Assembly: GCA_020443005.1 (NCBI GenBank)
Contig: JAGRJA010000250.1
Coordinates: forward strand, 1 to 40,088
DNA: 40,088 nucleotides
Direction of reading: 5' to 3'
Source: Pseudomonadales bacterium
Lineage (GTDB): Bacteria; Pseudomonadota; Gammaproteobacteria; Pseudomonadales; UBA7239
Part shown: piece by piece, positions 25,176-39,771 of the stretch
How positions within the stretch are numbered: the stretch's first letter is position 1
Layout: each line of letters begins with the position of its first letter
Translations under genes and position numbers: made by a program
The notes under the pieces: generated by a model
Databases searched by the model: none
Seen by the model: only the letters and a program-made list of their open reading frames with translations
Told to the model about the DNA's origin: nothing

Positions 25176-26024
25176 CTAAAGCCATCGCCAACCGTAAGTG
25201 TTATAAAAGGTGATCGCAGAACGGGCGAACAACCTGATATGGTGCCACCCTTTTTTGGCCGAGTGACCGCCCACATGAATGATTTTCATATCCGGACAAT
25301 AAGCCACCTTTGCCAGCCAGGCCATACGCAAGGAAAGATCGAAATCCTCAAAATAGAGAAAATAATCCTTTGAAAAGCCCCCCACCGACTTCAGCATCTG
25401 TGTTCTTGCCAACATGCAGCAGCCACTGATTATGGGTATTTCCTTACAAGCCCTGCCCGCTGTATAAACATCCTGCATTTCATAGTTTGCCAACCGTTTG
25501 CCGAAAAATCTTTTCACCCAGGATGGCGCAAAGCCCCGCAACAGAAAATCCAGAACCGTGGGAAACCGCTTGCACAAATACAAAGGCCTGTTTTTCTCAT
25601 CCACCACATGAGGCGCAAGCAAACCGACATCAATATTTGCCTGCAGATACGCCACTCCTTTTAAAAGCGCATCCTCCTCAAGAAAAACATCCGGGTTCAG
25701 AATCAGGTGAAAACGGCTTTGTCGGTTTTCAATACAGCGATTGTGACCGCCACCATAACCCAAATTGGTCGTGTTTTTGATGATGTTCACCTGGTCGAAG
25801 CAGGCGCTTAACTGCTCCATACAGCGCTCTGGCAGATTGGCCAGAGAAGTCTGCTGCGGGTGATTATCGAGCAGACAAAGACTCAAACGCTCGCTCTCGG
25901 GAAATGACTTCAGCTTTTCTGCCGCCTTCACAAGGTGCATCAGCGTTTTTTCAAGCACCGATATATCGGTGTCATACAAAACGACAGAGACCGACAAAAG
26001 TACAGCTGGAGCAGAAGAATTCAT
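25176..26024 (-). CDS. Family 2 glycosyltransferase (rhamnosyltransferase-like)
   Basis: SVSVVLYDTD N-terminal strand, LGYGGGHN, NPDVFLEEDAL (DxD-equivalent) and FLYFEDFDLSLR (ED motif). ATG 26024; the ORF-track start 26039 is TTG. Confidence 0.8.
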   Translation of the reverse strand: MNSSAPAVLLSVSVVLYDTDISVLEKTLMHLVKAAEKLKSFPESERLSLCLLDNHPQQTSLANLPERCMEQLSACFDQVNIIKNTTNLGYGGGHNRCIENRQSRFHLILNPDVFLEEDALLKGVAYLQANIDVGLLAPHVVDEKNRPLYLCKRFPTVLDFLLRGFAPSWVKRFFGKRLANYEMQDVYTAGRACKEIPIISGCCMLARTQMLKSVGGFSKDYFLYFEDFDLSLRMAWLAKVAYCPDMKIIHVGGHSAKKGWHHIRLFARSAITFYNTYGWRWL

Positions 26025-26278
26025 TACCGGAGCACACAAACAGATAGAAACACGAAACTATAACCCATACGCTTCCATTTTCGAGAAGAAAATCACCAGA
26101 AACCTTCGGCCGACAAACACTGTCCCCGAGACAAAATCACTTGCCCCGCCTTTCCACAACTTTAGGGGCTCACCCACCTGAAGAGAAAAATGAACTATAT
26201 CCCCTATTCCCTTGCAATTATTTTCCTGCGAAAGCTATTATGACGGGCTATTCTTTTCAACGAAGTGTAAAAATACCA

Positions 26279-27010
26279 ATGCGTCAACCCGAAAGAATCC
26301 TTTGTGTCCTCGGCATGCATCGAAGTGGAACCAGTTGTCTGACCGGCTCCCTGCAGCAAGGCGGCCTTTTTTTGGGAAAACACCATACTTGGAATGAGTA
26401 TAACCGCAAAGGTAATCGGGAGAATCAGGATATCGTTGATCTGCACGAAAATATTTTCAAGGCAAACGGTGTCAGCTGGCATTACCCCGTTCGCTGTTCA
26501 AGCTGGTACGAAAGACTGTTCAAACCCCAGTTGAAGTGGCGAAACAGCGACTACGAGCAGGCCCGAAAAATACTTGATGATTACGCCGACCAACCCATCT
26601 GGGGCTTCAAGGATCCACGCGCCCTGATGCTACTGGACGGATGGCTAAAAGTTGCACCTCACATGGAATTCGTGGGCATATACCGTCATCCGATGGCAGT
26701 AGCACAGTCCTTGCACAACAGGGAAGCACTCAAACTCGAAATAGCCCACGGCCTTGAGTTATGGCTTCAATACAATACTGCCCTCTTCCGGCAATTCAGA
26801 AAAACCCCCTTCCCGCTGCTGAGCTTTGACTGGTCAGAAGAAAAATTTCACGACAAACTGGAACAATTGCACAAGCAACTGGGGCTGGCAGCTCTACCTG
26901 AAGGGCAACGCTTTTATACAGCAGAATTGCACAATGAGAAGATAACCACCGCAGCCTTGCCACCCAAGGTTCAGGCCTTGTATGAAAAATTCCAGGAGAT
27001 TGAATACTAA
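26279..27010 (+). CDS. Sulfotransferase family protein
   Basis: PAPS 5'-phosphosulfate-binding-loop-like motif ILCVLGMHRSGTS seven residues from ATG 26279. Alternative starts at 26240 and 26141 (TTG). Confidence 0.7.
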   Translation: MRQPERILCVLGMHRSGTSCLTGSLQQGGLFLGKHHTWNEYNRKGNRENQDIVDLHENIFKANGVSWHYPVRCSSWYERLFKPQLKWRNSDYEQARKILDDYADQPIWGFKDPRALMLLDGWLKVAPHMEFVGIYRHPMAVAQSLHNREALKLEIAHGLELWLQYNTALFRQFRKTPFPLLSFDWSEEKFHDKLEQLHKQLGLAALPEGQRFYTAELHNEKITTAALPPKVQALYEKFQEIEY

Positions 27011-27011
27011 T

Positions 27012-28091
27012 ATGCCTGAGAACAAATCGCCCAACCTGGCTACAGACAAACCAACGCCCAAAAATATTCCCAACGCGCCAAAGCCGGTTATGTGGTTCGA
27101 CCCCCACAGTATGCCGACGATTCCGTCCAGTGATCCCGGCTACCTCACAAAAAGTCACAAACCCGTGCTGTCCATCATTGTGATGGTTTATAAAATGCCC
27201 GAGCAGGCCCAAAAAACCATCTATTCCCTGTCAACAGCCTATCAACGGGATGTCAGTGAAGCAGACTATGAAATTATTGTTATGGAAAACCCTTCCAATA
27301 ACCTGCTTGGCAAAGAAGCGGCAGAATCAATAGCCAGCAATGTACGCTACATTTTTTACCCGGAAACCCTGCCCACACCAGTAAACGCAATGAATCATGG
27401 TGCTCAACAGGCAAACGGTGACTGGATAGCTGTAATGATCGACGGTGCACGCATGGTCACTCCGGGCATGGTTAACTATATTCTCGCCGCTCGTCGACTT
27501 GCGCCCAGAGTCGTTATCTCGGTACCCGGGTATCACCTTGGCAACAAGGTTCAGCAGGAAGCGATGCTTGAAGGCTACGATGAAACAACCGAAGCCGAAC
27601 TCCTCGACAGTATTAATTGGCCAGAAGACGGCTACCGGCTGTTTGAGATCAGTTGTCTGAGTGGCACCAGTGCCGGTGGCTACTTCAAACCTATCGGCGA
27701 ATGCAACTGCTTCTGTATGTCGCGCGAGGTATGGAACGAGCTAGGCGGCTATGATCCGGGTTTCACGGAAACAGGCGGAGGCCAATGTAACCTCGACCTC
27801 TATAAAAGGGCTGTTGAATTACCGGATACCACACTGGTTACACTCATGGGAGAAGGCTCCTTCCATCAGTTTCACGGTGGCATTACCACCGGAACCAAGG
27901 GCGAGGAACGACTGAAAGCCATGCAGGATCATTTCAACCAATATGCCGCCCTTCGTGGCGGTTCCTATTCATCTCCACTCAAGCGGTCACTGTATCTCGG
28001 CACACTTCCCGACTGTGCTCTCAAGTTTGTCCGGCATTCGGCCAGCGTTGTGATGAAAAACCACGGTGAAATACCTCGCGAACTGAAATAA
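27012..28091 (+). CDS. GT-A (GT2)-like protein, paralog 1 of 5, with Pro-rich N-terminal extension
   Basis: Shares LSIIVMVYKMP, YEIIVMEN, IDGARMVTP, VPGYHLG, W..DGYRLF, GGG.CNL and GEGSFHQFHGG with the other four paralogs. ATG is 1 nt after the upstream stop. Confidence 0.7.
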   Translation: MPENKSPNLATDKPTPKNIPNAPKPVMWFDPHSMPTIPSSDPGYLTKSHKPVLSIIVMVYKMPEQAQKTIYSLSTAYQRDVSEADYEIIVMENPSNNLLGKEAAESIASNVRYIFYPETLPTPVNAMNHGAQQANGDWIAVMIDGARMVTPGMVNYILAARRLAPRVVISVPGYHLGNKVQQEAMLEGYDETTEAELLDSINWPEDGYRLFEISCLSGTSAGGYFKPIGECNCFCMSREVWNELGGYDPGFTETGGGQCNLDLYKRAVELPDTTLVTLMGEGSFHQFHGGITTGTKGEERLKAMQDHFNQYAALRGGSYSSPLKRSLYLGTLPDCALKFVRHSASVVMKNHGEIPRELK

Positions 28092-28128
28092 ACCCCGATA
28101 GCAAGACGCAAGAAGGAATAACCGGAAA

Positions 28129-29154
28129 ATGACAAAAAAACCCATACTCTCAATTATCGTCATTGTCTACAAAATGCCTCGACAAGCAATGAACACCCTG
28201 CTCAGTCTCGCGCTTCCCTACCAGAAAAACGTCAATCCAGAAGAATATGAAGTGATTGTCATTGAAAACAGCTCAGAACAGAACCTGAACGCTGACACAG
28301 TCACAGCTCTCGGCCCGCAATTCCGCTATTTTCTCAGGGAGGAGTCTGGTGTTTCTCCTGTGCCAGCGGTTAATTTCGGTTTTGAACAATGTCAGGGCGA
28401 ATTCATAGGCCTGATCATTGACGGCGCCCGTATGGTCACACCGCGGGTTCTTGAATACGCCATGCTTGGCTATAAAATCACCCGTCAGGCGATTGTTATG
28501 GTACCCGGCTATCATCTGGGCGAAGAAGATCAAAAGTTTCATCTCACCACCGGTCACTCTGCGCAAAAAGAAATCGAAAAACTGGAAGAACTGGACTGGC
28601 AGGAAAACGGTTACCGTCTCTTCAACTTTGCAGCATGGAGTTCCAGTAACCAACGAGGTTACTTCCAACCGATGCAGGAATGTAATTGCCTTTTTGCCTC
28701 AAAGGACAATTTTGACCTTATTGGCCGTGCTGATGAGCGCTTTGATCAGGCTGGCGGCGGCAGCATCAACCTGCATATCTATCGCAGCCTCGGCATGCTA
28801 CCTGAAAGCCAGCTTTTCATACTGCCAGGGGAGGGTTCATTCCACCAGTTTCACGGCGGTGTAACAACCACCGAAATTGAAAACCGTGAAGCCCTGCTAA
28901 AAGCGTTTGATCAACGCCTGGAAGAGATCTGGGGAGGGAGCTTCAAGGCACTGACGAGAGAACCTATGCTGCTTGGCGCTGTCACCCATGCGGCTCAACC
29001 CTTTCTCTCGAAAGCCTCGGAACTGGCAACCCGCCGGTTCCAGCGGCTGACAATCAATAAAAAGGAATTCTGGGAAGATGACAAGGCTTTCGAACGATTC
29101 ACAGAAAACGCTGTCAGTGTTGTCGACGATGGCTATCAGCCTCCGGAAATGTAA
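28129..29154 (+). CDS. GT-A (GT2)-like protein, paralog 2 of 5
   Basis: SIIVIVYKMPRQAMNT, YEVIVIENSS, IDGARMVTPRVLEY, VPGYHLG, GGGSINLHIYR and PGEGSFHQFHGG. Confidence 0.7.
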   Translation: MTKKPILSIIVIVYKMPRQAMNTLLSLALPYQKNVNPEEYEVIVIENSSEQNLNADTVTALGPQFRYFLREESGVSPVPAVNFGFEQCQGEFIGLIIDGARMVTPRVLEYAMLGYKITRQAIVMVPGYHLGEEDQKFHLTTGHSAQKEIEKLEELDWQENGYRLFNFAAWSSSNQRGYFQPMQECNCLFASKDNFDLIGRADERFDQAGGGSINLHIYRSLGMLPESQLFILPGEGSFHQFHGGVTTTEIENREALLKAFDQRLEEIWGGSFKALTREPMLLGAVTHAAQPFLSKASELATRRFQRLTINKKEFWEDDKAFERFTENAVSVVDDGYQPPEM

Positions 29155-29161
29155 TAAACAC

Positions 29162-29443
29162 TCAGGGTAGCTTTTTTTTAGCCATACGCTTCAGTTTCGC
29201 TTTGGCGTATTTGTCGCCCTGATCAGCTGCCTGTTGTAACCAGTACAAATACTGGTCATGACTTTTCTCAACACCATTACCGGCAAAATACATGCGAGCC
29301 ACTTTCTGCTGTGCCTCCAGAACGCCCTGCTCTGCGAGCGGCAGAAGAATCTGAAAGGCCTGATCAAATTCAAAATGCATAAAAGCATTCACACCTTTCT
29401 GCAGCAATTGCATATTTTCATTTTCCCCAGTGGATTTGCTCAT
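29162..29443 (-). CDS. Sel1-like repeat (SLR/TPR-type) protein, 93 aa
   Basis: LAEQGVLEAQQKVARMYFAGNGVEKSHDQYLYWLQQAADQGDKYAKAKL fits the Sel1 repeat consensus. ATG 29443 has an AAGGAG SD; the ORF track extends to 29548. Confidence 0.7.
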   Translation of the reverse strand: MSKSTGENENMQLLQKGVNAFMHFEFDQAFQILLPLAEQGVLEAQQKVARMYFAGNGVEKSHDQYLYWLQQAADQGDKYAKAKLKRMAKKKLP

Positions 29444-29573
29444 AATCTCCTTGCGTTCAGGTTGATTTGCGCCCTGTTTTATTGCATCTGGAAATCGGTT
29501 CAACACACAACTGCCGATGCTATCCATTTTCGCAACAGGAGTGCTCAAGGCAATATTATACGCATTAAACCTG

Positions 29574-30326
29574 CTATACAGCGGGTGTTTTTTTCCAGAT
29601 AGTCACATGTGGCCTGTCACTTTCTCCGACAGGCCGACCGTTGGAATAGTAGAAAGTGGAAATCGATTTTCTCGACATATCCGGCGGGCAGGTCAGTGGC
29701 GTCGGATGCCCATGATAAGTGTCGCTTCCCGTTGAGAAAATGACAGCTCTCCCGGCTAAAGGTGCAACTTTTTTCACGCAGGTTTTCATATCGGCAGTCC
29801 ACAACTCAAGATCACCGCCATAACTCTCTTTCCAGTTCTTGTTCAGGTAAACAATGATATTCAGCCGTCGGTCAAGATCGGTTTCAGGTTGTTTATTATA
29901 GTCAGCGTGCACCATCAAGAATCCACCCGCCTTGCTTTCATGCAAGCCCCCTCCGGCCCGATAGGGGTCGGGAATCAGTGCAGACACACCAGTAAGCGTT
30001 TGCAGAAATGAAATAAACTCGGCCGAATTAAGTTCCCAATAAAAGTGACGAATGGGCAAGCCAACACGAAGCTCCATTGAAACCCAGTGCTTTTTATATT
30101 GCGCTACCGTACCATCTTTGAGTTTTTGTGACTCATCATCGTGATTGTCCCTTTTTTTGGGCTCAGGGAATGTCGCCAGTAACAAATCAATCGATTTCTC
30201 ATCGAGAAAATGATCAATAACGATGTGAGGGAACGGTTCAGCATTCCGGTATTCGTCAGCGTGCTTTCTGGCGAAATCCTGTAGAAAATCAAAATCAAGT
30301 AGAGGCTGGATACCTTGTTGGCTCAT
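29574..30326 (-). CDS. 2OG-Fe(II) oxygenase (prolyl-4-hydroxylase-like)
   Basis: PFPHIVIDHFL N-terminal motif, HxD (VHADYN), distal His (YHGHP) and the 2OG-binding RKS. GGGAGG SD. Confidence 0.8.
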   Translation of the reverse strand: MSQQGIQPLLDFDFLQDFARKHADEYRNAEPFPHIVIDHFLDEKSIDLLLATFPEPKKRDNHDDESQKLKDGTVAQYKKHWVSMELRVGLPIRHFYWELNSAEFISFLQTLTGVSALIPDPYRAGGGLHESKAGGFLMVHADYNKQPETDLDRRLNIIVYLNKNWKESYGGDLELWTADMKTCVKKVAPLAGRAVIFSTGSDTYHGHPTPLTCPPDMSRKSISTFYYSNGRPVGESDRPHVTIWKKTPAV

Positions 30327-30359
30327 GACTTCAAGCTACCTCCCGTAATACACGACAAA

Positions 30360-30995
30360 TCAATAATCCTCGAATGCTTTTTGTCGCTCTTCCAGCGAAC
30401 GGGCACGATCATTGATATAAAAGAAAGCGACCAGCGACCAGGCGGAACCATTTACCGTCGATCGAATTGCGGAAAGCTCTTTTACTGCTGAGAGAAACAA
30501 TTGACCGGGTATCATGGTTTTTATTGTACTGCTCTCGCCTTCATCGGGCATCCGTATAGCTGTTTCAGAAGGCGCATGCGATTCTGCAGCCAACAATATT
30601 TCCACCCGAAGTACCGGGTACAAATCAGTCACCGGATGGCGTAAAAAGGGTAACTGTATTTTCTGGTTGTTCCAGCTCTCAATACCACCACCCACAAGAA
30701 ACGGATCTGGCAACAGAGCCTGAGTACCCGACACAGAGGCAAGGTGACGCAAGGTGGTCGGTGAATGAAGCTCCCAAATCAGCTGTCGAATCAAGGGCGT
30801 CTGCCTAAGTCGGGCCTGGCCTTCAGGGCTTGCAACAACAGAAGCCTGCAAACCTGCCAGACAATCTGCAAACACAGCATGATATTCACGCTTGATGAAA
30901 TCGCCAAGAAACAGGTGCGGGAAGTGTTCCGCATTTTGAAATCGACTGCATTGATACTGCTGAAAATGGCTAACAAGTACAGAAGTATCAACCAT
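30360..30995 (-). CDS. Degenerate paralog of the adjacent 2OG-Fe(II) oxygenase (facial triad lost)
   Basis: Shares NAEHFPHLFLGDFI, WELHS and GTQALLPDPFLVGGGIE with its neighbour. It has HPV instead of HxD and lacks the distal His and the Arg. ATG 30995; the ORF-track start 31040 is GTG. Confidence 0.55.
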   Translation of the reverse strand: MVDTSVLVSHFQQYQCSRFQNAEHFPHLFLGDFIKREYHAVFADCLAGLQASVVASPEGQARLRQTPLIRQLIWELHSPTTLRHLASVSGTQALLPDPFLVGGGIESWNNQKIQLPFLRHPVTDLYPVLRVEILLAAESHAPSETAIRMPDEGESSTIKTMIPGQLFLSAVKELSAIRSTVNGSAWSLVAFFYINDRARSLEERQKAFEDY

Positions 30996-31187
30996 TATTG
31001 CCGGCAACTTTTTCGCCACAGACACGCCACTCCATCCCACCCCGGGATTGCAAGATCATTAACGGTTCACTTATTCAGGAATTCACTCTAACATACAACA
31101 CATGAATCAGAAAAATGTTGATACAGGGCAAGCACTTGCCATCAGTTTATTCACGACAGAAAACCCCGAACACAGACAGCTTATAAC

Positions 31188-32177
31188 ATGAAGGCACCAT
31201 TGAAGATATCTGTCATTGTTATTGTTTATCGTATGCCGAGACAGGCTATTAATACGATTTACAGCTTGTCAGCCCTGCACCAGAGAAACATCAAGGAAGA
31301 AGAATACGAAATCATTGTTGTCGAAAACAGGTCCGAAAATATGATTGATCAGCAACAACTCCTTGCACTGGGTAAAAACATTCGTTATTTCAGCCGCGAA
31401 GAGAGTGGCCACTCACCAGCTGCCGCAATCAATTATGGTTTTAGCCTCTGTCGCGCAGATTACATTGGCCTGTTGATTGACGGCGCCCGCATGGTGACAC
31501 CGCGTGTTCTCGAATACGCCCTTCAGGCCAAAAGCATTGATAAAAATTCGATTTTTGCCGTTCCGGGCTACAACCTTGGCGCCGAAAAACAACACATTGA
31601 TTCTCACTACAGTGAAGAAAAGGAAATCCGTTTGCTCTCGAAAACCAACTGGCAGCAAAACGGATACAGGCTGTTTGATATTGCCAATATCGGCGAAGCT
31701 AATCCCCGCGGATTTTTCCAGCCTTTCATGGAAAACAACTGTCTATTTTCATCGCTGGGCAGCTATGAAAACATAGGTTTCGCCGATGAGAATTTTCATT
31801 TTCTGGGTGGCGGTGGACTAAACCTTCATATGTTTCGGCTTTTGGGTACATTAGCCAATGCGCCTTACCTTTTTGTCACGCCAGGTGAAGGCTCTTTTCA
31901 CCAGTATCACGGTGGCGTTTCCACAACTCCGCGAGCCGACAGGGAAGAAATACTGGCCCCCCCCCGTAAACAGTTGGTGAGTTACTGGGGAGGCGATACT
32001 TTCAAGGCGCTGCAAAGAGAGCCTTTTCTGCTGGGCGCTGTCAACAGCCACGCACAGAAATTTCTGCTCTATTCCAGCCAGCGAGCACTGAAACGCTTCG
32101 AGCGCAAAACCCGTAATAATGAGCCATTCTGGCCATCCGACTTCAAACAAAAGCGTTATACGGAGCATTTCAGTTGA
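31188..32177 (+). CDS. GT-A (GT2)-like protein, paralog 3 of 5 (contains C9 tract)
   Basis: SVIVIVYRMPRQAINT, YEIIVVENRS, IDGARMVTPRVLEY, VPGYNLG, GGGGLNLHMFR and PGEGSFHQYHGG. Confidence 0.7.
   Translation: MKAPLKISVIVIVYRMPRQAINTIYSLSALHQRNIKEEEYEIIVVENRSENMIDQQQLLALGKNIRYFSREESGHSPAAAINYGFSLCRADYIGLLIDGARMVTPRVLEYALQAKSIDKNSIFAVPGYNLGAEKQHIDSHYSEEKEIRLLSKTNWQQNGYRLFDIANIGEANPRGFFQPFMENNCLFSSLGSYENIGFADENFHFLGGGGLNLHMFRLLGTLANAPYLFVTPGEGSFHQYHGGVSTTPRADREEILAPPRKQLVSYWGGDTFKALQREPFLLGAVNSHAQKFLLYSSQRALKRFERKTRNNEPFWPSDFKQKRYTEHFS
31957..31965 (+). repeat. Homopolymeric C9 tract inside paralog 3 coding sequence
   Basis: Read directly: ctg gcc ccc ccc cgt (LAPPR). It is the longest G/C homopolymer I found in the window. 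Confidence 0.9.
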
Positions 32178-33178
32178 ATCAACCCATACCCAAAATATCG
32201 GTTGTTATCATTGTTTACAACATGGCTCGTCAAGCCATGAATACATTGTATTCATTGAGCCCTGAATATCAGAAAAACATTGATGCCAACGACTACGAAA
32301 TTATTGTGGTTGAAAATCATTCCTGCAACATGCTCGATAAACAGCAGGTTGAAATGCTTTCGCCAAATATCCGATATTTTTGCAGGGAAGAAAAAGGTGT
32401 TTCTCCCGTTCCGGCAATCAACTTCGGTTTTCAAAAATGTCGCGCCCCCATGATTGGCCTGATGATTGATGGTGCTCGCATGGTCACACCGCGCATTATC
32501 GAATACACCTTAATGGCTCAACACATCGATGCGAATGCTGTCGTCGCCGTACCCGGCTACAATCTTGGCCCCGCCGAACAGCAATATGCAGAGCAGTTGA
32601 ATTATAACGAAGCGATTGAAACCGCTATGCTCAGCAAGACAAACTGGCAAAAAAATGGCTACCGTCTTTTTGATATCAGCAGTATTGGTGGCGCCAATCC
32701 CACCGGAGTCATCAATCCTTTGATGGAGTCAAATTGTGTATTCGCCTCAAAAAAAAGCTTTGAAAAAATCGGATGGGCCGACGAGCAATTTACTTACCCC
32801 GGTGGCGGTTCGGTTAACTTGCACATCTTTCGCTCATTGGGCATGCTGCCTGAAAGCAATGCCTATTTTATCTTGCCCGGAGAGGCCTCTTTTCACCAAT
32901 TGCACGGTGGAGTCACCACTGCCAACTCAAGCCAACGCGAAGCCATGTTGAAAAAGTTTGCCCAACAATTGAATAATCTATGGGGTGTATTCAGTGTACT
33001 CAAACGCGAACCCATTTTACTCGGTGCTGTTACCAGTCACGCACAACCCTTTTTGAAATTTTCAGCTGATGAAGCGATGATTCGCTTTGATCGCCTATCC
33101 GAAAAGGGTGTTGATCACTGGGTGGACGATGTCGCCCGAAAGCAAAAAATCGGCAGCCAAGGAAAACCATACCCATGA
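32174..33178 (+). CDS. GT-A (GT2)-like protein, paralog 4 of 5
   Basis: SVVIIVYNMARQAMNT, YEIIVVENHS, IDGARMVTPRIIEY, VPGYNLG, GGGSVNLHIFR and PGEASFHQLHGG. The TTG start overlaps the paralog 3 stop (TTGA), and no in-frame ATG lies upstream of the conserved core. Confidence 0.7.
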   Translation: MNQPIPKISVVIIVYNMARQAMNTLYSLSPEYQKNIDANDYEIIVVENHSCNMLDKQQVEMLSPNIRYFCREEKGVSPVPAINFGFQKCRAPMIGLMIDGARMVTPRIIEYTLMAQHIDANAVVAVPGYNLGPAEQQYAEQLNYNEAIETAMLSKTNWQKNGYRLFDISSIGGANPTGVINPLMESNCVFASKKSFEKIGWADEQFTYPGGGSVNLHIFRSLGMLPESNAYFILPGEASFHQLHGGVTTANSSQREAMLKKFAQQLNNLWGVFSVLKREPILLGAVTSHAQPFLKFSADEAMIRFDRLSEKGVDHWVDDVARKQKIGSQGKPYP

Positions 33179-34167
33179 CCAGAAACCCAAAGCTATCGAT
33201 CGTGCTGATCGTTTACAAGATGCCGCGACAGGCGCTGAATACGATTTACAGCCTTTCCATAAACCACCAGAAAAATGTGCGGGAAACTGATTACGAAATC
33301 ATCGTGGTAGAAAACCTTTCCAGCGATAACCTCGATGGAGATGCAGTTTGTGCAATCGGCAACAACATACGCTACTTTCCAAGAAATGAAACCAGCGCCT
33401 CTCCGGTTGGTGCAATCAACTTCGGCATTGAACAATGCCGGGCACCGGCGATATGTCTGATGATTGACGGCGCCAGAATGGTGACGCCTCGCGTCATTGA
33501 GTATGCACTGATGGCTCGCAACATCGATCAGGATTTTCTGTTGGCCGTTCCGGGTTACAATATCGGCCCCCATGAGCACCAATACAACATCTCAAGGCAA
33601 TACGATCAGGAAACTGAAAAACGCTTGCTGGAAACCGTAAAATGGAAAACCAACGGTTATCGCCTGTTTGATATCTGCAATATCAGCGGTGCCAATGAAA
33701 AAGGCATTTTTCACCCGTTGCTGGAGTGCAATTGCATGTTTTCTTCTGCACAAAACTTTGAGCGTATCGGTGGTGCAAACATGGATTTCCAGCTTCCGGG
33801 AGGAGGGTCAATCAACCTTCACATGTTCCGTCAACTCGGCATGCTGAAACAGACCCGATACTACTTCATCACACCCGGGGAAGGTTCATTCCACCAGTTT
33901 CATGGCGGCATAACCACACAGGAAGCCGAAGATCGTGAGGAAGTACTTGAATCCCATCGCAAACAGCTTCATTCCTACTGGGAAGGTGGTTTTCATGCCA
34001 TGCGACGGGAGCCTATTCTTCTTGGCGCCGTTGGTAGCAAGGCACAATCATTTCTGCATTACTCCTCAAAAAAAGCGCGCAAACGCTTTGGGTGGATGCG
34101 AAACGGAGGAAAACATCCCTGGATTGACGACTTCAATCTGTTTGCATCTGCCAATTTCAACACTTAA
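33175..34167 (+). CDS. GT-A (GT2)-like protein, paralog 5 of 5
   Basis: SIVLIVYKMPRQALNT, YEIIVVENLS, IDGARMVTPRVIEY, VPGYNIG, GGGSINLHMFR and PGEGSFHQFHGG. ATGA overlap with the paralog 4 stop. Confidence 0.7.
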   Translation: MTRNPKLSIVLIVYKMPRQALNTIYSLSINHQKNVRETDYEIIVVENLSSDNLDGDAVCAIGNNIRYFPRNETSASPVGAINFGIEQCRAPAICLMIDGARMVTPRVIEYALMARNIDQDFLLAVPGYNIGPHEHQYNISRQYDQETEKRLLETVKWKTNGYRLFDICNISGANEKGIFHPLLECNCMFSSAQNFERIGGANMDFQLPGGGSINLHMFRQLGMLKQTRYYFITPGEGSFHQFHGGITTQEAEDREEVLESHRKQLHSYWEGGFHAMRREPILLGAVGSKAQSFLHYSSKKARKRFGWMRNGGKHPWIDDFNLFASANFNT

Positions 34168-34257
34168 TATGAATATTTTGACACTCACCGGCAAGTTGTC
34201 AGCCCTGTAAACACCCTCGGCAAGAATGAGTCGATCTACCACACAAAGAGAATATAT

Positions 34258-35043
34258 ATGGCGATTTATGCACCCCCTTCAATCCGCAGATTTTCAGCTG
34301 ACTTTATGTGCTTCAGTACATGGGTAGATCATCTGGCATTTGGTTATGACATTGTCGCCGCATTAAGGCCCGCACTTACTGTAGAACTCGGCACTCAGGG
34401 TGGGCTTTCCTTTTTCTGTTTCTGCCAGTCGTTAAAAGAGAATGAAATTGATGGTATTGCCTATGCCGTCGACACCTGGGAAGGAGAAGAGCATACAGGC
34501 AAGTATGATGAATCCGTTTTCAATAGCGTGCAGGAACACGCCAGAAAAAATCATGCTGGACGAGCCTATCTCATGCGCATGCTTTTTCAGGAAGCTATCA
34601 ATCACTTCAGTGACGAATCCATTGATCTACTGCATATTGATGGCTTGCACACCTACGACGCCGTGAAAGAGGATTTCACAACCTGGTTACCCAAGGTAAG
34701 ACCCGGAGGTGTTATCCTCTTTCATGACATTCAGGCCAGGATGATGGATTTTGGCGCCTGGAAATTCTGGGAAGAATTATCTGCTTCCGGAGAATACAAA
34801 ACCATGGAATTCAAACACGGTTTCGGTCTGGGCGTGCTTCAGAAAAACGGTGGGCCGCAAAACGAACATACTCTGCTCAAACTCCTTTTTGACGCGTCAC
34901 CGGATGAGCACGGTGAATTACGCGCATTCTACATCCATGCAGCAAAATTCCTTGAACTCCAGCGCAAAGTTGAACGGCAGGAGCGCATGAAGAAAAAACG
35001 ACAGGCCGAAATGCAGGCAAAACAAAAAAACGCACAAGCGTAA
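34258..35043 (+). CDS. Class I SAM-dependent methyltransferase (Methyltransf_24/CmcI-like by recollection) with basic C-terminal tail
   Basis: Motif I-like VELGTQGGLS, IDLLHIDGLHTYDAVKEDF and VRPGGVILFHD. Lys/Arg/Gln-rich tail is RKVERQERMKKKRQAEMQAKQKNAQA. Confidence 0.7.
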   Translation: MAIYAPPSIRRFSADFMCFSTWVDHLAFGYDIVAALRPALTVELGTQGGLSFFCFCQSLKENEIDGIAYAVDTWEGEEHTGKYDESVFNSVQEHARKNHAGRAYLMRMLFQEAINHFSDESIDLLHIDGLHTYDAVKEDFTTWLPKVRPGGVILFHDIQARMMDFGAWKFWEELSASGEYKTMEFKHGFGLGVLQKNGGPQNEHTLLKLLFDASPDEHGELRAFYIHAAKFLELQRKVERQERMKKKRQAEMQAKQKNAQA

Positions 35044-35052
35044 TAGCTTTTT

Positions 35053-35847
35053 TTAAAGACGACTCTCAAGCACCCCTGAAAAAAATTCAGCCGTTTCCTC
35101 AAGAAGCGGTTGAGCCCAGGGAATACGAACAAAGTCCTCCTGACTTACACCCCTCATTTTGTTCACATAACTTTCAAGTAAACCACAGAGTTTTTCAGAA
35201 GAAAAATCGCCATCAAGCCCCCTGTCAAGTGAAACACTGGAGATGGGGCTCTTGTTGCTCACTGTCATCGCCAGGTCAAGATGAGGAGGTGGTACAGCCA
35301 GCTGGCTGAAAGCCAAGGCTGCATCCTTGTGCTGAATGACACTGGGCAGCCTGCTGTTGCTATCGAGCCACTGACTGCTAACAGCATAATTATTCGTCAT
35401 GCAACGCCCATTCAAACCCCAGATAAAAACCGGATGTTGTTGATTCGGGCTACCTATATTAGCCGAACGCCAAAGTATTGCAGGAAGGGCTTCCTGATCA
35501 AGCTGACCCAGATGAACAGCAATATCGGGATCAATCCAGTCATCATCGTCAATAAACAAATAGTAGGCATTGGCCACAATCGGTATATTTTTATAGCCCT
35601 TGAAAGGGATAAAAAGTGTATTTGCTGCTTCTCTGATATTCTTCTCGGAAAGGTTTTTTAAGGCTTGCCTCACATTGCAATACGATATCTGAAAGGTCCT
35701 GTTCCACAGATGATAAAGTTTTTCAAGATAATTCAAGGGCTTGCCCCAAAGCCTACAAAAATCACGGGACTGTTGCAAAAAAGCGGTCTCGCTCATCCCC
35801 CCCCAATCAGGAGTTTGCCGCTGTACAACCACCACACTATTGCTCAT
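35053..35847 (-). CDS. Hypothetical protein (264 aa) with DDDD motif; contains G8 tract at codons 14-16
   Basis: The ORF starts 7 nt after the upstream gene stop. YYLFIDDDDWIDPD is reminiscent of a GT-A DxD motif, but no family is recognised. Confidence 0.5.
   Translation of the reverse strand: MSNSVVVVQRQTPDWGGMSETAFLQQSRDFCRLWGKPLNYLEKLYHLWNRTFQISYCNVRQALKNLSEKNIREAANTLFIPFKGYKNIPIVANAYYLFIDDDDWIDPDIAVHLGQLDQEALPAILWRSANIGSPNQQHPVFIWGLNGRCMTNNYAVSSQWLDSNSRLPSVIQHKDAALAFSQLAVPPPHLDLAMTVSNKSPISSVSLDRGLDGDFSSEKLCGLLESYVNKMRGVSQEDFVRIPWAQPLLEETAEFFSGVLESRL
35807..35814 (-). repeat. Homopolymeric G8 tract (C8 on + strand) near the 5' end of the 264-aa ORF
   Basis: Read directly: tgg ggg ggg atg (WGGM) on the minus strand. 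Confidence 0.9.
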
Positions 35848-35854
35848 CGGGCTG

Positions 35855-38071
35855 TCAGGAATTCATCACATCGTGAATAGGTTTGCGGGAGAGCTTTCTT
35901 TTTATTGTTCGTTGCAGCTCAAAGGGAATGAGACGAACCAGCGTTCTTATCACCGGCTTTTCCCGCAATAACAATAAAAATCTCAGCAACTTTTCACGCT
36001 TGCCAGGGTCGAGCACCTCCTGTTTTTCTCCATGCGGGAAAGAGAGAGTCCGCATCGTTTCCATATCAGAGGCAAGAGTCGACAAGTTTCTGGCAGAAGG
36101 CTGCGTGTCAACAATAAAGTCCTCGGCATAACGAAAAACAGCATCGCCCGATGCGCAATTGTCCCACACCGTTTGCTCGTAGCTGTGTTCAAGCATCCAT
36201 TCCCTCAGCTCAATGAAAGCATTTTTCCATTGCTCGGGTTCATCATTCCATCGACGAATATAACTCAATGGTCTGCCTGCGAGTCGCTCTTCAAAGGAAC
36301 CAAGATTTGATGCCATAATCGGCCTACCGGACTCGAGGGCAGAACTCAAAACATAGCAATAGGTTTCGGGCCACTGGGCCGGAAACCAAATCACATGAGG
36401 GTTAATCTGCTCGATCAGACCTTGAAGTTCATCATTTTTATAAGCACCGTGACTTGTAATCGTTTCACGCATGGGTTTATAGGCGTAACCGATCAAATGA
36501 AACTCCAGTCGATCCAGTGGGTCCCTATGGCACGCTGTATGCTCGAACTTATCTGCCCCCTTCTCGCGACTGACAGCACCTATCACTGCGATACGCAATT
36601 TTTCGTTTTCTGCAACAGGAACAACATAGGGTGCCGGATAGGATTTGATCATTTCGGCATCCGGATGGTAAGCAACTGTAATCGACAAATGAGGGAAATA
36701 ACTGTTATAGATTTGGGCGCACGCTTTACTGGGAGAAAAAATCCGCTTTGCACCGTCAAGCACGCTCCGACTAAAGACCTGCCAGGAAGAAAGTGAATAG
36801 CCCGTTGGCAAGGGATATGATTCAGCGCACTTTACAGGTCTGTCTTTTGGGTCTTCTACAAAAATCCCTTGCTTGTCGGTCAATGTCGGATTGGCATTGA
36901 TAAAATAATAGTCATGCAATGTCACATCATAAGGAAGTGCCAATATGCGGGGCAGCTCAAGCGCCTTTACGGGCATTCTCATGACATGATGGATATGTAT
37001 TCGTTCAACGCCAAGATAAACCAGCGTGTCGACGAGCAATGAGAAATCGCTCCTCATAGAAAAAAACAAATGCAGGTCAAAATGTCGTGCTGTAAAACAT
37101 AGCTCAAGACCTTCTTCGCCATTGGGCTTGAGCACCAGAATATTGATTTTATCCGAGAAAAAAGCCTGCATTTCATTGATATGGTTCTGGATACCACCGC
37201 CCATATCATGTGTCATAAACAGAATTGTTCTGCGGCTTTCTTCCGCAAGCATATCAAGCTGGATTTTTTGCCGTAAATGTCGGGCCGGATCTTGCTGAAT
37301 ATGCTCATGAACCAGACGGTGATAGTGGGGATATTTTTTATCGAGTATTTGCATGGCGTTTTCAACACGCTCAAGCTTCTCATGAGAAAAACTCACCCCT
37401 CCCTCATGAAACACAAACACATTCGTACACAAGGCATGCCGCAAGCCAACGGCCTCACACCTCAGACAAAAATCGTTTTCCTCACCATAACCTCGCCCAA
37501 AAGCCTCTTCATCAAAATAACCCACTTTTTTCAAAGCAGATCGCTTGATATACATACAGAATCCAACAGCGGTCGGCATAAAGATCGGTTCGGAAAAGTG
37601 GTATTTGGAAAAAAAACTGTCGATCTCGCTGACACTTTTATCCCCAACAAGCTCATTACTTTTACACAGCACCGGAAAACTGCAAATTTCAGCGTTATTG
37701 CTAAATGGGGTTACTGTCGCAATCGCATCGTCAGAGATGGCACATTCATACAATCGATCTAGCCAGTTATTGGCAACGATGGTATCGCTGTTAACAAGCA
37801 CAACATCCCTGTCCTCATGCAAGCGCATGCCTTTGTTAACCGTAGCCACAAACCCCAGATTTTGCTCATTCGTCAACAGGGTGAATTTTCCGGTATCCGC
37901 ATGCTCCATCAGGTAATCGGTCAGTTTCTGATTGGGCGAGCCATCATTGATAATGATAATCTCGCAATCATGTGCGTAATCCGATGCAAGAACCGAATCT
38001 ATACAGCGTACTGTCTGATCGAAACCATCATATACCGGAATAATTATATCGACGGGAGGGTTTACACTCAT
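35855..38071 (-). CDS. Bifunctional-looking glycosyltransferase (N-terminal GT2 domain, C-terminal GT1/GT4-like domain)
   Basis: N-terminus has VDIIIPVYDG, EIIIINDGSP, VLVNSDTIV and EENDFCLR. The middle has THDMGGGIQNH. The C-terminus has IAVIGAVSREKG...WPETYCYVLSSALESGRP (E-x7-E-like). ATGA overlap with the upstream gene. Confidence 0.8.
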   Translation of the reverse strand: MSVNPPVDIIIPVYDGFDQTVRCIDSVLASDYAHDCEIIIINDGSPNQKLTDYLMEHADTGKFTLLTNEQNLGFVATVNKGMRLHEDRDVVLVNSDTIVANNWLDRLYECAISDDAIATVTPFSNNAEICSFPVLCKSNELVGDKSVSEIDSFFSKYHFSEPIFMPTAVGFCMYIKRSALKKVGYFDEEAFGRGYGEENDFCLRCEAVGLRHALCTNVFVFHEGGVSFSHEKLERVENAMQILDKKYPHYHRLVHEHIQQDPARHLRQKIQLDMLAEESRRTILFMTHDMGGGIQNHINEMQAFFSDKINILVLKPNGEEGLELCFTARHFDLHLFFSMRSDFSLLVDTLVYLGVERIHIHHVMRMPVKALELPRILALPYDVTLHDYYFINANPTLTDKQGIFVEDPKDRPVKCAESYPLPTGYSLSSWQVFSRSVLDGAKRIFSPSKACAQIYNSYFPHLSITVAYHPDAEMIKSYPAPYVVPVAENEKLRIAVIGAVSREKGADKFEHTACHRDPLDRLEFHLIGYAYKPMRETITSHGAYKNDELQGLIEQINPHVIWFPAQWPETYCYVLSSALESGRPIMASNLGSFEERLAGRPLSYIRRWNDEPEQWKNAFIELREWMLEHSYEQTVWDNCASGDAVFRYAEDFIVDTQPSARNLSTLASDMETMRTLSFPHGEKQEVLDPGKREKLLRFLLLLREKPVIRTLVRLIPFELQRTIKRKLSRKPIHDVMNS

Positions 38072-39756: not shown

Positions 39757-39771
39757 TCAATTGTTTATCAG

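What the first reader, a model, noticed from the sequence alone, without database searches (positions are those of the whole stretch)
27012..34167. Five tandem, diverged paralogs of a GT-A-like protein lacking the canonical GT2 acidic motifs
**What is conserved.** Five ORFs of about 330-360 aa share a collinear motif set:

- SIIVIVYKMPRQA.NT
- YEIIVVEN.S
- IDGARMVTPR..EY
- VPGY.LG
- W..NGYRLF
- NC.F.S
- GGGS.NLH..R
- PGEGSFHQFHGG

**How it differs from GT2.** Motif order matches GT2 enzymes, but three positions differ:

- The nucleotide-binding DD is E-N.
- The DxD position is D-G-A.
- The position where GT2 enzymes carry the ED catalytic-base motif is GGG.

A strictly conserved His-rich motif, FHQ[FYL]HGG, appears instead.

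**Interpretation.** By-eye identity between paralogs is roughly half, so these are old duplicates maintained side by side. That implies five distinct specificities or a hetero-oligomer. Short nucleotide islands, such as the one encoding IDGARMVTPR, remain highly similar between copies. The family may be an uncharacterised transferase class rather than a standard GT2.
Basis: partly seen in the sequence, partly recalled or inferred. Interest (0 to 1): 0.75.

Follow-up and report, generated by a model that had tools for sequence, protein, structure and literature searches.

The report
Divergent GT2-like glycosyltransferase paralogs, non-canonical active site
Five related genes in a marine Pseudomonadales surface-sugar gene cluster encode enzymes with the common glycosyltransferase (GT-A) fold, but their usual metal-binding and catalytic acidic residues are replaced by a different conserved residue set; no member of this large family has been studied experimentally.

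Summary
The five paralogs are real, intact and 37-56% identical. They are arranged 2+3, not strictly in tandem: three minus-strand genes lie between them.

**Fold and family**
- AlphaFold models (pLDDT 93 and 86) have a GT-A fold. The nearest solved structures are GT2 enzymes: K4CP, TarP, RmlT and WrtF.
- Pfam PF00535 matches above its threshold, but only over the N-terminal ~100 residues.

**Motifs**
The metal-binding Asp of DxD is Ala (D-G-A-R), and no acid occupies the xED site (GGG-S/L-x-N).
- Two readings need correcting. E-N is a conservative form of the ordinary GT2 (D/N)-(D/N)-x-S motif. FHQxHGG is most likely the standard GT-A C-terminal His, with a second His added.

**Family structure**
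- The family has about 2,200 clusters at 50% identity and no characterised member.
- It splits into clade A (P1) and clade B (P2-P5). It usually occurs as adjacent pairs or triplets, and sometimes as fused two-domain proteins.
- P3, P4 and P5 each have positional orthologs in other genomes.

**Context and verdict**
- The usual neighbours are sulfotransferases, a Methyltransf_24 methyltransferase, a 2OG oxygenase and Wzm/Wzt.
- Most likely these are active glycosyltransferases with a non-canonical way of handling the donor diphosphate or a metal. They probably build a methylated, sulfated surface glycan.
- This is a new variant of a known kind, of moderate interest.

The parts
27012..28091 (+). 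P1, the clade-A family member. It is 359 aa from the NCBI start; the ORF opens at 26982. It has a ~45-55 aa N-terminal extension rich in Pro, Lys and Asn. DGAR lies at 27441-27452 and FHQFHGG at 27861-27881. It carries Asp at the position equivalent to P5 residue 216 (NLDLY).
   Evidence: AF2 model: pLDDT 86, GT-A fold. Orthologs are 350-390 aa long and up to 84% identical.
28129..29154 (+). P2, a clade-B family member of 341 aa. DGAR lies at 28420-28431 and FHQFHGG at 28840-28860.
31188..32177 (+). P3, a clade-B member of 329 aa. It is the positional ortholog of the first gene of the triplet in L001 and L002. DGAR lies at 31479-31490 and FHQYHGG at 31896-31916.
   Evidence: (63-67% identical to L001_a and L002_a).
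32174..33178 (+). P4, a clade-B member of 334 aa. It overlaps P3 by 4 nt. It is the positional ortholog of the second gene of the triplet. DGAR lies at 32468-32479 and FHQLHGG at 32891-32911.
   Evidence: (65-66% identical to L001_b and L002_b).
33175..34167 (+). P5, a clade-B member of 330 aa and the reference for residue numbering. It overlaps P4 by 4 nt. It is the positional ortholog of the third gene of the triplet. DGAR lies at 33466-33477 and FHQFHGG at 33889-33909.
   Evidence: 70-73% identical to L001_c and L002_c. AF2 model: pLDDT 93, pTM 0.92. Foldseek places it with GT-A/GT2 structures.
26141..27010 (+). Sulfotransferase (Sulfotransfer_3-like) immediately upstream of P1. The same sulfotransferase-then-A/B-pair order occurs in Aquipseudomonas guryensis SR9.
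   Evidence: A homolog lies within ±8 kb in 33 of 54 long family loci.
25176..26039 (-). Canonical-looking GT2 of 287 aa. By eye it carries LLDNHP, LNPD, FEDFD and HVGGH motifs.
29162..29548 (-). Small Sel1-repeat protein. It is part of the conserved module upstream of the triplet.
29574..30326 (-). 2OG-Fe(II) oxygenase (PF13640).
   Evidence: A homolog lies near family genes in 27 of 54 long loci.
30360..31040 (-). Degenerate paralog of the 2OG oxygenase. The HxD iron-binding motif is not conserved.
   Evidence: (BLASTP E=8e-12).
34258..35043 (+). Methyltransf_24 (CmcI/TylF-like) O-methyltransferase directly downstream of P5.
   Evidence: 37 of 54 long loci. The same domain is fused to family domains in other organisms.
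35053..35847 (-). Conserved 264-aa protein of unknown family. It contains FIDDDDWIDPD.
35855..38071 (-). 738-aa two-module glycosyltransferase. The N-terminal module is a canonical GT2 and the C-terminal module is GT4-like. It is the likely chain-building enzyme.
38068..39756 (-). 562-aa sulfotransferase-like protein.
39787..40088 (-). 3' part of a small sulfotransferase gene, cut by the contig end. In syntenic loci this gene is followed by wzt and wzm.

Best explanation
**What the proteins are.** The five proteins are soluble or peripheral single-domain GT-A glycosyltransferases. They belong to a large, uncharacterised, GT2-related clade.

**Where they act.** They sit in a cytoplasmic, ABC-transporter (Wzm/Wzt)-type pathway that builds a methylated and sulfated surface glycan, either an O-polysaccharide or a capsule-like polymer. 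A 738-aa two-module glycosyltransferase probably makes the chain. Each paralog probably adds one particular sugar or linkage: side branches, adaptor residues or capping residues. The neighbouring Methyltransf_24 enzyme and sulfotransferases would then O-methylate or sulfate those sugars.

**How they may associate.** P1+P2 is one 'A+B' unit and P3-P4-P5 is one 'B-B-B' unit. The members of a unit may work as a hetero-oligomer or in strict sequence.

**Inferred active site.**
- The N-terminal Rossmann half binds a nucleotide sugar in the usual GT2 way (Y14, E46/N47-x-S49, N82, D98).
- Ala100 replaces the Asp that normally holds Mn2+/Mg2+, and there is no xED base.
- The diphosphate is instead handled by R101 (His in some members) and the H240-Q-x-H243 loop.
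- This happens either directly, making the enzyme metal-independent, or through a metal bound by D98, H240 and H243. The second option would be a relocated version of the Asp/His/His site of GT27.
- The base, if one is needed, is E184 (at the G-loop position), D/H216 or E236.

**Shown versus inferred.** Shown here: fold, motif substitutions, family-wide conservation, paralog orthology and gene context. Inferred: donor, acceptor, metal use, stereochemistry and oligomeric state.
For: **Fold**
- The AF2 models are confident: P5 has pLDDT 93 and pTM 0.92; P1 has pLDDT 86.
- Foldseek ranks GT2 GT-A enzymes first, including K4CP at E=3e-12, TarP, RmlT, WrtF, AvpGT and ppGalNAc-Ts.
- PF00535 scores above its gathering threshold for all five paralogs, and for 58 of 60 family members.

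**Motif register**
- Aligned to K4CP, YEVIVADDGS pairs with yeiivvenks, DSDDFLEP with DgaRmvtP, and HWGGED with lpGGGs.
- Aligned to the window's canonical GT2, NDGS pairs with ENLS, VNSDT with IDGAR, and GYGEEND with GGGSINL (probability 70%, E=4e-5).

**Constraint**
- Counts in 139 representative domains from clusters at no more than 50% identity:
  - D98: 139
  - A100: 137
  - R101: 113, with His in 17
  - P105: 139
  - E184: 136
  - G211: 138
  - N214: 129
  - position 216: D/E 114, H 16
  - E236, H240, Q241 and H243: 138 each
- All five window paralogs keep these residues.

**Glycan role**
- Family domains are fused to Methyltransf_24/TylF/Methyltransf_11, sulfotransferase, GT4, TPR and NKWYS domains.
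- One fusion, to a CmcI-type methyltransferase, lies directly after rfbCBDA in Rhodobacter sp. CZR27.
- Gene order is conserved with the 735-aa GT2-GT4 protein, sulfotransferases and wzt/wzm in L001, L002, L003 and A. guryensis.
- Within ±8 kb in 54 long loci, Methyltransf_24 occurs in 37, a sulfotransferase in 33, the 2OG oxygenase in 27 and Wzt in 21.

**Distinct roles or heteromers**
- P3, P4 and P5 show one-to-one positional orthology.
- Locus patterns are AB in 31 loci, BB in 13 and BBB in 3, out of 83.
- Fused BB and AB proteins of about 650-666 aa exist.

**Precedents**
- GT-A enzymes that lost DxD and are metal-independent include GT14, bacterial GT6 and the GT2 enzyme WrtF, whose motif is GADD (PMC7185993, PMC12595478).
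- C-His is a known metal ligand (PMC7185993).

**Membrane association**
- No transmembrane segment is predicted. The maximum Kyte-Doolittle 19-residue average is about 1.05.
Against: - No activity, donor, acceptor or metal has been measured for any member.
- PF00535 covers only about the first 100 residues. The C-terminal half matches no curated family.
- The alignments at the xED and C-His positions are weak on their own. The K4CP sub-alignments are individually insignificant. The P5 local alignment to the window's GT2 is at background, and the P1 alignment reaches only z=2.5.
- I could not read model coordinates. The proximity of D98, R101, H240 and H243 is therefore inferred from GT-A topology, not measured.
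- Loss of both DxD and xED is also the signature of the inactive GT-A scaffold COSMC (PMC7185993).
- R101 is not invariant: Q, C, Y or N occur in 8 of 139 domains.
- Position 216 is H, Y or C in clade B. It cannot be a universal catalytic base.
- wzm and wzt are not in the window itself, because the contig ends first.
- The loci used for searches were found with family-motif patterns, so their motif statistics are biased. The statistics are not.
Confidence: 0.6

Rival explanations
1. These are ordinary GT2 enzymes with standard chemistry. The motif differences would be alignment artefacts, and a canonical DxD-metal and Asp-base mechanism operates from nearby residues.
For: - PF00535 scores above threshold.
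- The fold is GT-A and the nearest structures are GT2.
- E/D-N-x-S is a normal GT2 variant.
- Functional NxD variants of DxD are known (PMC11231755).
Against: - Three independent alignments put Ala100 at the metal-binding Asp.
- The stretch from residue 97 to 106 holds only one acid, D98, family-wide, and residues 209-215 hold none.
- No equivalog or curated subfamily matches. The best NCBIfam score is 24.8 bits against a cutoff of 370.
Confidence: 0.08
2. These are catalytically dead GT-A scaffolds or chaperones, like COSMC. They would organise or regulate the canonical 738-aa glycosyltransferase, the sulfotransferases or the methyltransferase, or bind the nascent glycan.
For: - Both DxD and xED are lost, as in COSMC (PMC7185993).
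- A canonical multi-module GT2 and tailoring enzymes lie nearby.
- The cluster also holds a clearly degenerate oxygenase paralog.
- Multi-copy and fused arrangements would suit scaffolding.
Against: - Polar residues at active-site positions are near-invariant: D98, E184, E236, H240, Q241 and H243 are each present in at least 136 of 139 domains, across about 2,200 clusters.
- Both members of A/B pairs carry the same substitutions, so no canonical partner of the same family exists to be chaperoned.
- Many members are the only GT-like domain fused to a sugar methyltransferase.
- The canonical 735-aa GT is found near only 13 of 54 long loci.
Confidence: 0.12
3. This is a GT-A-fold enzyme with different chemistry. 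One option is an anionic acceptor such as a phosphate, which needs no base, as in the dolichol/undecaprenyl-phosphate GT2-DP group. Another is a non-NDP-sugar donor such as a CDP-alditol or a sugar-1-phosphate, or a β-linked 6-deoxy-L-hexose donor that requires a freed diphosphate, as in WrtF.
For: - Absence of the xED Asp is characteristic of GT2-DP enzymes, which transfer to phosphate (PMC7185993).
- WrtF links DxD loss to the use of β-L-fucose (PMC12595478).
- The family is associated with rfb (dTDP-L-rhamnose) genes, RgpF, and CmcI/TylF-type methyltransferases.
- A YfhO-type GT-C lies next to the cluster in L002.
Against: - No transmembrane or amphipathic anchor typical of polyprenyl-phosphate GT2s is evident.
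- Three to five paralogs per cluster would be unusual for Und-P-sugar synthases.
- No nucleotide-sugar pathway genes lie in this window.
- The evidence is contextual only.
Confidence: 0.15

Closest known systems
CAZy GT2 / Pfam PF00535 GT-A glycosyltransferases. Structural prototypes: E. coli K4 chondroitin polymerase (2Z86/2Z87), TarP, TarS, RmlT, SpsA.
   Same: - GT-A fold.
- An N-terminal β1-β4 nucleotide-binding half that PF00535 recognises.
- The (D/E)-N-x-S and A-x-N-x-G motifs.
- A first Asp at the end of β4.
- A His in the C-terminal 'C-His' position.
- A setting in polysaccharide gene clusters.
   Different: - The third residue of DxD is Ala, followed by Arg or His.
- There is no acidic xED residue. 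The site reads GGG-[SLF]-x-N.
- An invariant Glu sits at the G-loop position (E184).
- The C-His motif is extended to E-G-x-F-H-Q-x-H-G-G.
- Structural similarity is only moderate: TM about 0.45-0.56 and 9-19% identity.
WrtF, the GT2 α-1,4-fucosyltransferase of Rhizobium tropici O-polysaccharide (PMC12595478; PDB 9OMH-9OMN).
   Same: - A GT2-type GT-A enzyme in an O-polysaccharide pathway with a degenerate DxD.
- It appears among the Foldseek hits for both models.
- It shows that GT2 scaffolds can work without a DxD-bound metal.
   Different: - WrtF's motif is G-A-D-D, so the first Asp is lost and the later ones are kept. Here the motif is D-G-A-R, so the first is kept and the later one is lost.
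- WrtF has no basic residue at the diphosphate and no HQxH motif.
- Sequence similarity is insignificant (E about 0.85).
Metal-independent GT-A families that lost DxD: GT14 (C2GnT-L) and bacterial GT6 (BoGT6a).
   Same: DxD is lost, and a conserved basic residue (R101) lies next to the former metal site. This would fit diphosphate neutralisation by side chains.
   Different: - These are unrelated families, with no detectable sequence similarity.
- Their basic pairs come from other structural elements.
- Metal independence has not been tested here.
GT27 polypeptide GalNAc-transferases (D-x-H plus C-His metal site; WGGEN motif).
   Same: - They appear among the Foldseek hits.
- Their metal is held by one Asp and two His, including the C-His.
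- The xED region is Gly-rich and lacks the catalytic Asp (WGGEN versus GGGSxN, from my own knowledge of the motif).
   Different: - The second His here would come from the C-terminal loop (H243), not from the β4 loop.
- The proteins have no lectin domain and occur in a bacterial polysaccharide context.
- Membership in this family is not supported.
COSMC (C1GALT1C1), a GT31 pseudo-glycosyltransferase.
   Same: [quoted passage not shown]
   Different: COSMC pairs with an active close paralog. Here all paralogs share the substitutions and keep an alternative invariant polar constellation.

Membership tests
GT2 / Pfam PF00535 (Glycos_transf_2) | Sequence match to the family model above its curated threshold | tested here: met
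   The five paralogs score 24.8-35.2 bits against a cutoff of 23.3. The match covers only profile positions 1 to about 85-130. 58 of 60 family members match.
GT2 / Pfam PF00535 (Glycos_transf_2) | GT-A (single Rossmann-like α/β/α) fold | tested here: met
   The AF2 models have pLDDT 93 and 86. The top Foldseek PDB hits are GT2 GT-A enzymes with E of 1e-12 to 1e-8 and TM 0.45-0.56.
GT2 / Pfam PF00535 (Glycos_transf_2) | DxD (or NxD) motif after β4, whose last Asp binds the divalent cation (PMC11231755, PMC7185993) | tested here: not met
   D98-G99-A100 aligns to DSD of K4CP and 5HEA, and to NSD of the window's GT2. A100 is present in 137 of 139 representative domains.
GT2 / Pfam PF00535 (Glycos_transf_2) | xED acidic catalytic base at the start of helix αF | tested here: not met
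   GGG-S-x-N aligns to WGGED and GYGEEND. No acid occurs at positions 209-215 in the family. The register is uncertain by 1-2 residues.
GT2 / Pfam PF00535 (Glycos_transf_2) | Inverting transfer from an NDP-sugar | not testable with these tools
   This needs enzymology.
GT-A common core (Taujale et al. 2020) | C-terminal His (C-His) about 20-30 residues after the xED region | tested here: inconclusive
   - H240 lies 28 residues after S212. In K4CP, H386 lies about 25 residues after the ED (my arithmetic and PMC7185993).
- The P1 local alignment pairs SFHQFHGG with VFHE--GG of the window's GT2, but only at z=2.5.
Metal-independent GT-A enzymes (GT14, bacterial GT6, WrtF) | Loss of the DxD metal site | tested here: met
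Metal-independent GT-A enzymes (GT14, bacterial GT6, WrtF) | Basic side chains contacting the donor diphosphate | tested here: inconclusive
   R101 is present in 113 of 139 domains and His in 17. Contact with the diphosphate was not measured.
Metal-independent GT-A enzymes (GT14, bacterial GT6, WrtF) | Activity unaffected by EDTA or divalent cations | not testable with these tools
   This needs enzymology.
Pseudo-glycosyltransferase (COSMC-like) | Loss of catalytic motifs together with relaxed constraint on the active-site region | tested here: not met
   The motifs are lost, but D98, E184, E236, H240, Q241 and H243 are each conserved in at least 136 of 139 domains.
ABC-transporter-dependent polysaccharide (O-PS/CPS) biosynthesis cluster | wzm/wzt genes, multi-module polymerising GT and tailoring or terminating enzymes in one locus | tested here: inconclusive
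   - The window has the 738-aa GT2-GT4, three sulfotransferases and a methyltransferase.
- The contig ends before the position where wzt and wzm lie in the collinear loci L001, L002 and L003.
- Wzt lies within ±8 kb in 21 of 54 long family loci.

The most novel reading that the evidence does not exclude
The family is a catalytically active GT-A lineage that rebuilt its active site. The DxD-held metal and the xED base would be replaced by a D98 / E184 / E236 / H240-Q-x-H243 constellation. That constellation would act either as a relocated Asp-His-His metal site or as a metal-free His/Arg diphosphate clamp. The family would operate as obligate A/B (or B/B/B) hetero-oligomers that install the methylated or sulfated residues of ABC-transporter-exported glycans. 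If so, it would merit its own GT2 subfamily or a new CAZy family, and it would be a new mechanistic variant of the GT-A fold.
Probability: 0.3. Interest if true: 0.65.

Novelty: new variant of a known kind. Interest (0 to 1): 0.5.

Why it matters
**Mechanism.** GT-A enzymes are usually explained by three elements: DxD, xED and C-His. Metal-independent or rewired examples are few (GT6, GT14, GT29, GT42 and WrtF). This family has about 2,200 clusters at 50% identity, keeps the fold, and replaces two of the three elements with another invariant residue set. It is a ready test case for how the GT-A scaffold tolerates rewiring of its active site.

**Annotation.** These proteins are currently labelled 'glycosyltransferase family 2/A'. 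That label implies a DxD-dependent mechanism, which the sequences do not support.

**Biology.** The conserved module combines these glycosyltransferases with sulfotransferases, a CmcI-like methyltransferase and a 2OG oxygenase. It points to a methylated, sulfated cell-surface glycan in marine Pseudomonadales (Halieaceae and relatives) and in some Pseudomonas. Such a glycan would bear on phage and grazer interactions and on marine sulfated-polysaccharide pools.

**Tractability.** Cultured carriers exist: Aquipseudomonas guryensis SR9, Pseudomonas sp. PDM18, P. subflava, P. paralcaligenes and Ca. Seongchinamella marina IMCC8485. Genetics and biochemistry are therefore feasible.

Tried and rejected
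- **Near-identical DNA in plasmids.** No match.
- **NCBIfam.** Only sub-threshold matches to N-terminal GT2 regions.
- **PDB sequence searches.** Both the 5-sequence and the 60-sequence profiles gave only N-terminal GT2 matches, with a best E of 8.5e-5.
- **hhalign of the family profile against the window's 287-aa GT2.** Not significant.
- **Smith-Waterman of the P5 C-terminal half against the 738-aa GT2.** At background. The C-His equivalence therefore rests on spacing, topology and the weak P1 alignment.
- **Full-text search for the motif strings** FHQFHGG, HQFHGG, IDGARM and DGARMV. Nothing relevant.
- **Literature search for sulfated, ABC-transporter-dependent O-antigen clusters.** No paper on this family.
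- **Recent gene conversion as the cause of the nucleotide 'islands'.** Rejected, because the islands are only 60-86% identical.
- **Asp/His216 as a universal relocated catalytic base.** Rejected as universal, because clade B also has Tyr and Cys there.
- **PAPS as donor.** Rejected, because dedicated sulfotransferase genes or domains accompany the family.
- **Klebsiella O4/O7 paper, checked for an equivalent module.** Its GT2 modules carry DxD or NxD.
- **PDB search with the 264-aa unknown protein (35053-35847).** Nothing found.
- **Distances in the AF2 models.** Could not be measured, because coordinates are not exposed.

Full report
**1. What is in the sequence**

Positions 26982-34167 hold five intact + strand ORFs of 329-369 aa with a collinear motif set.
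- P1: 26982/27012-28091
- P2: 28129-29154
- P3: 31188-32177
- P4: 32174-33178
- P5: 33175-34167

Pairwise identities are 37-40% for P1 against the rest, 50-53% for P2 against P3-P5, and 55-56% among P3-P5.

The array is not strictly tandem. Three minus-strand genes lie between P2 and P3:
- a Sel1-repeat protein (29162-29548);
- a PF13640 2OG-Fe(II) oxygenase (29574-30326);
- a degenerate paralog of that oxygenase (30360-31040).

P3/P4 and P4/P5 overlap by 4 nt. The conserved nucleotide 'islands' are only 60-86% identical. They reflect purifying selection on motifs, not recent gene conversion.

**2. Origin and surroundings**

The window is an entire 40,088-bp contig of a Pseudomonadales MAG. 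Upstream lie ordinary chromosomal genes: the cco operon, OmpW and leuA.

The glycan cluster runs from about 25176 to the contig end. Besides the five paralogs it contains:
- a 287-aa GT2;
- three sulfotransferase-like genes;
- a Methyltransf_24 methyltransferase;
- a conserved 264-aa protein of unknown family;
- a 738-aa protein with a GT2 module and a GT4-like module.

Window 29168-40086 is collinear with a JGI metagenome contig (L001) and with MAG JANQLY01 (L002). In both, the small sulfotransferase that the window's end truncates is followed directly by wzt and wzm. A Cellvibrionales MAG (L003) shows the same ending. The cultured Aquipseudomonas guryensis SR9 (L066) has wzm/wzt, then a sulfotransferase, then a family pair, an acyltransferase and Methyltransf_24, together with a WbsX/RgpF protein.

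Within ±8 kb of family genes in 54 long loci from species-representative genomes, homologs of Methyltransf_24 occur in 37, the sulfotransferase in 33, the 2OG oxygenase in 27 and Wzt in 21.

**3. Fold and family**

PF00535 (Glycos_transf_2) matches all five paralogs above its gathering score. The match covers only the first ~100 residues. The C-terminal two-thirds match no Pfam or NCBIfam family.

AlphaFold2 models of P5 (pLDDT 93, pTM 0.92) and P1 (pLDDT 86) are confident. Foldseek against the PDB returns GT2 GT-A enzymes first: K4 chondroitin polymerase at E=3e-12, then TarP, RmlT, WrtF, AvpGT, 6P61 and ppGalNAc-Ts. TM-scores are only about 0.45-0.56 and identities 9-19%. The fold is therefore GT-A, but no close structural relative exists.

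No transmembrane segment is predicted.

**4.

Three sets of alignments agree on the register (P5 numbering). They are HMMER alignments of the family profile to solved GT2s and an hhalign alignment to the canonical N-terminal GT2 module of the window's own 738-aa protein (probability 70%, E=4e-5).

| Family residues | Aligns to |
|---|---|
| E46-N47-x-S49 | D-D-G-S or N-D-G-S |
| D98-G99-A100-R101 | D-S-D-D (K4CP, 5HEA) and N-S-D-T (window GT2) |
| G209-G-G-S212 | W-G-G-E-D (K4CP) or G-Y-G-E-E-N-D (window GT2) |

Ala100 thus occupies the position of the cation-binding Asp. The third alignment has a 1-2 residue uncertainty.

In the K4CP alignment, E184-x-N186 falls where the GT-A 'G-loop' lies (nomenclature from PMC7185993).

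H240 lies 28 residues after S212. This is comparable to the ED-to-C-His spacing in K4CP. A weak local alignment pairs P1's SFHQFHGG with VFHE--GG of the window's GT2 (z=2.5).

I therefore read FHQxHGG as the GT-A C-His motif with a two-residue insertion that adds a second His. It is not a motif that appears 'instead' of a GT2 motif.

'E-N for D-D' is a weak anomaly. The family has D (69) or E (70) at position 46 and N at position 47 (136 of 139). The window's canonical GT2s have D-N and N-D there.

**5. Family-wide constraint**

A profile search of 1.84 billion representative proteins found 2,181 clusters (50% identity) at E≤1e-3, 1,196 at E≤1e-10 and 628 at E≤1e-30.

In 139 near-full-length domains from the best 150 representatives, the conserved residues are as follows.

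| Position | Count of 139 |
|---|---|
| D98 | 139 |
| G99 | 137 |
| A100 | 137 |
| R101 | 113 (His 17) |
| P105 | 139 |
| E184 | 136 |
| G209 / G210 / G211 | 137 / 135 / 138 |
| N214 | 129 |
| Position 216 | D/E 114, H 16 |
| E236 | 138 |
| F239 | 138 |
| H240 | 138 |
| Q241 | 138 |
| H243 | 138 |

All five window paralogs keep this set. This is the signature of a constrained ligand-binding or catalytic site, not of a decaying one.

Distant members from cultured alphaproteobacteria, about 30% identical, keep the same motifs.

**6. Paralog structure**

Clustering of 152 family domains gives two clades.
- Clade A includes P1. It has Asp216 in 42 of 42 members and often an N-terminal extension. 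It is the broadly distributed type, and the one usually fused to other domains.
- Clade B includes P2-P5. Position 216 is H, Y or C.

Locus patterns are AB in 31, B in 24, BB in 13 and BBB in 3 of 83 loci. Natural fused BB and AB proteins of about 650-666 aa exist. The window therefore combines an 'AB' unit (P1-P2, preceded by a sulfotransferase as in A. guryensis) with a 'BBB' unit (P3-P5).

P3, P4 and P5 each have a one-to-one positional ortholog in L001 and L002, at 63-73% identity against 50-58% between paralogs. The triplication therefore predates these lineages, and each copy has been kept. Together with the fusions and the overlapping stop and start codons, it makes sequential action or a hetero-oligomer plausible.

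**7. Function**

Fusion partners of the family domain are Methyltransf_24/TylF/Methyltransf_11 O-methyltransferases, sulfotransferases, GT4, TPR and NKWYS.

In Rhodobacter sp. CZR27, a fusion of the family domain to a CmcI-type methyltransferase lies directly after rfbCBDA and next to manB/manC.

This pattern fits a sugar-adding domain whose product is then O-methylated or sulfated, within ABC-transporter-dependent glycan assembly. In such pathways, multi-module enzymes and non-reducing-end modifications are typical (PMC11231755).

The donor is unknown. The associations with rhamnose genes and RgpF, and the WrtF precedent, hint at 6-deoxyhexose donors. In WrtF, a GT2 with a degenerate DxD uses β-L-fucose without a metal (PMC12595478). 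This hint is contextual only.

**8. Mechanism (inferred)**

The N-terminal half keeps the usual GT2 nucleotide-binding residues. The Asp that normally holds the cation is Ala, and there is no xED acid. I see two sub-models.
- (a) Metal-free. R101 (or His) and H240/H243 contact the diphosphate directly, as basic residues do in GT14 and bacterial GT6 (PMC7185993, PMC12595478).
- (b) Relocated metal site. It would be formed by D98, H240 (C-His) and H243, analogous to the Asp/His/His site of GT27.

I cannot discriminate between these without model coordinates or experiments.

A base, if one is required, could be E184, E236 or D/H216. Position 216 is not universally basic-capable in clade B. Absence of the xED Asp is also compatible with a retaining mechanism or with an anionic acceptor (PMC7185993).

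**9. Rivals**
- Ordinary GT2 chemistry is disfavoured by three concordant alignments and by the lack of any nearby acid.
- A COSMC-like pseudoenzyme is disfavoured by the near-invariant polar constellation, by the fact that all paralogs share the substitutions, and by fusions in which this is the only GT domain.
- Different chemistry, such as a phosphate acceptor or an unusual donor, remains open.

**10. Verdict**

This is a GT-A, GT2-related clade with a rewired active site and no characterised member. Databases nonetheless recognise it as GT2-like. One 'missing' motif is an ordinary variant, and the 'new' His motif is most likely the known C-His position, extended.

It is a new variant of a known kind, of moderate interest. 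It is experimentally tractable, because cultured Pseudomonas and Halieaceae strains carry it.

Noticed in passing
window 30360-31040 (-): This 226-aa ORF has no Pfam hit. It is a diverged paralog of the adjacent 2OG-Fe(II) oxygenase (BLASTP E=8e-12). The oxygenase's VHADYN stretch, which carries the HxD iron motif, aligns to LPFLRH, so the protein is probably non-catalytic. The oxygenase / pseudo-oxygenase / Sel1 trio is conserved upstream of the triplet in L001 and L002.
   Followed up: partly
window 35053-35847 (-): This conserved 264-aa protein has no Pfam or PDB sequence match. It contains an acidic 'FIDDDDWIDPD' stretch. A 55%-identical ortholog sits in the same position next to the ~735-aa GT2-GT4 gene in L001, and a same-sized gene with no Pfam hit sits there in L002. 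It may be a further unrecognised transferase.
   Followed up: partly
window 39787-40088 (-), contig end: The contig ends inside a small sulfotransferase gene that is 46% identical to the L001 homolog. In three syntenic loci that gene is followed immediately by wzt and wzm. The ABC transporter of this cluster is therefore probably just off the assembly.
   Followed up: yes
window 34258-35043 (+) and 29574-30326 (-): A CmcI/TylF-like Methyltransf_24 methyltransferase and a 2OG oxygenase co-occur with the family in 37 and 27 of 54 long loci. The pairing recalls the CmcI/CmcJ hydroxylate-then-methylate couple of cephamycin biosynthesis. That resemblance is from my own knowledge and was not tested.
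   Followed up: no
window 27012-27170 (P1 N-terminus): P1 carries a ~45-55 aa N-terminal extension rich in Pro, Lys and Asn (pLDDT 44-81). Its presence and length are conserved in P1 orthologs (350-390 aa), and it is absent from P2-P5.
   Followed up: partly
L084 (Sphingobium sp. RAC03 plasmid pBSY17_1, 97417-98304): A distant family member, 34% identical and with all motifs kept, sits in a different context. Its neighbours are an acyl carrier protein, a fatty acyl-AMP ligase, two PhyH dioxygenases, a P450 and pyruvyl transferases. This suggests a glycolipid or acylated-glycan pathway.
   Followed up: no
window 22331-23278 (-) and 6225-7817 (-): A 315-aa ORF with no Pfam hit lies between leuA and a GNAT acetyltransferase. 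A 530-aa TSP3/FG-GAP repeat protein lies next to two P450 genes and an extradiol dioxygenase. Neither was examined further.
   Followed up: no
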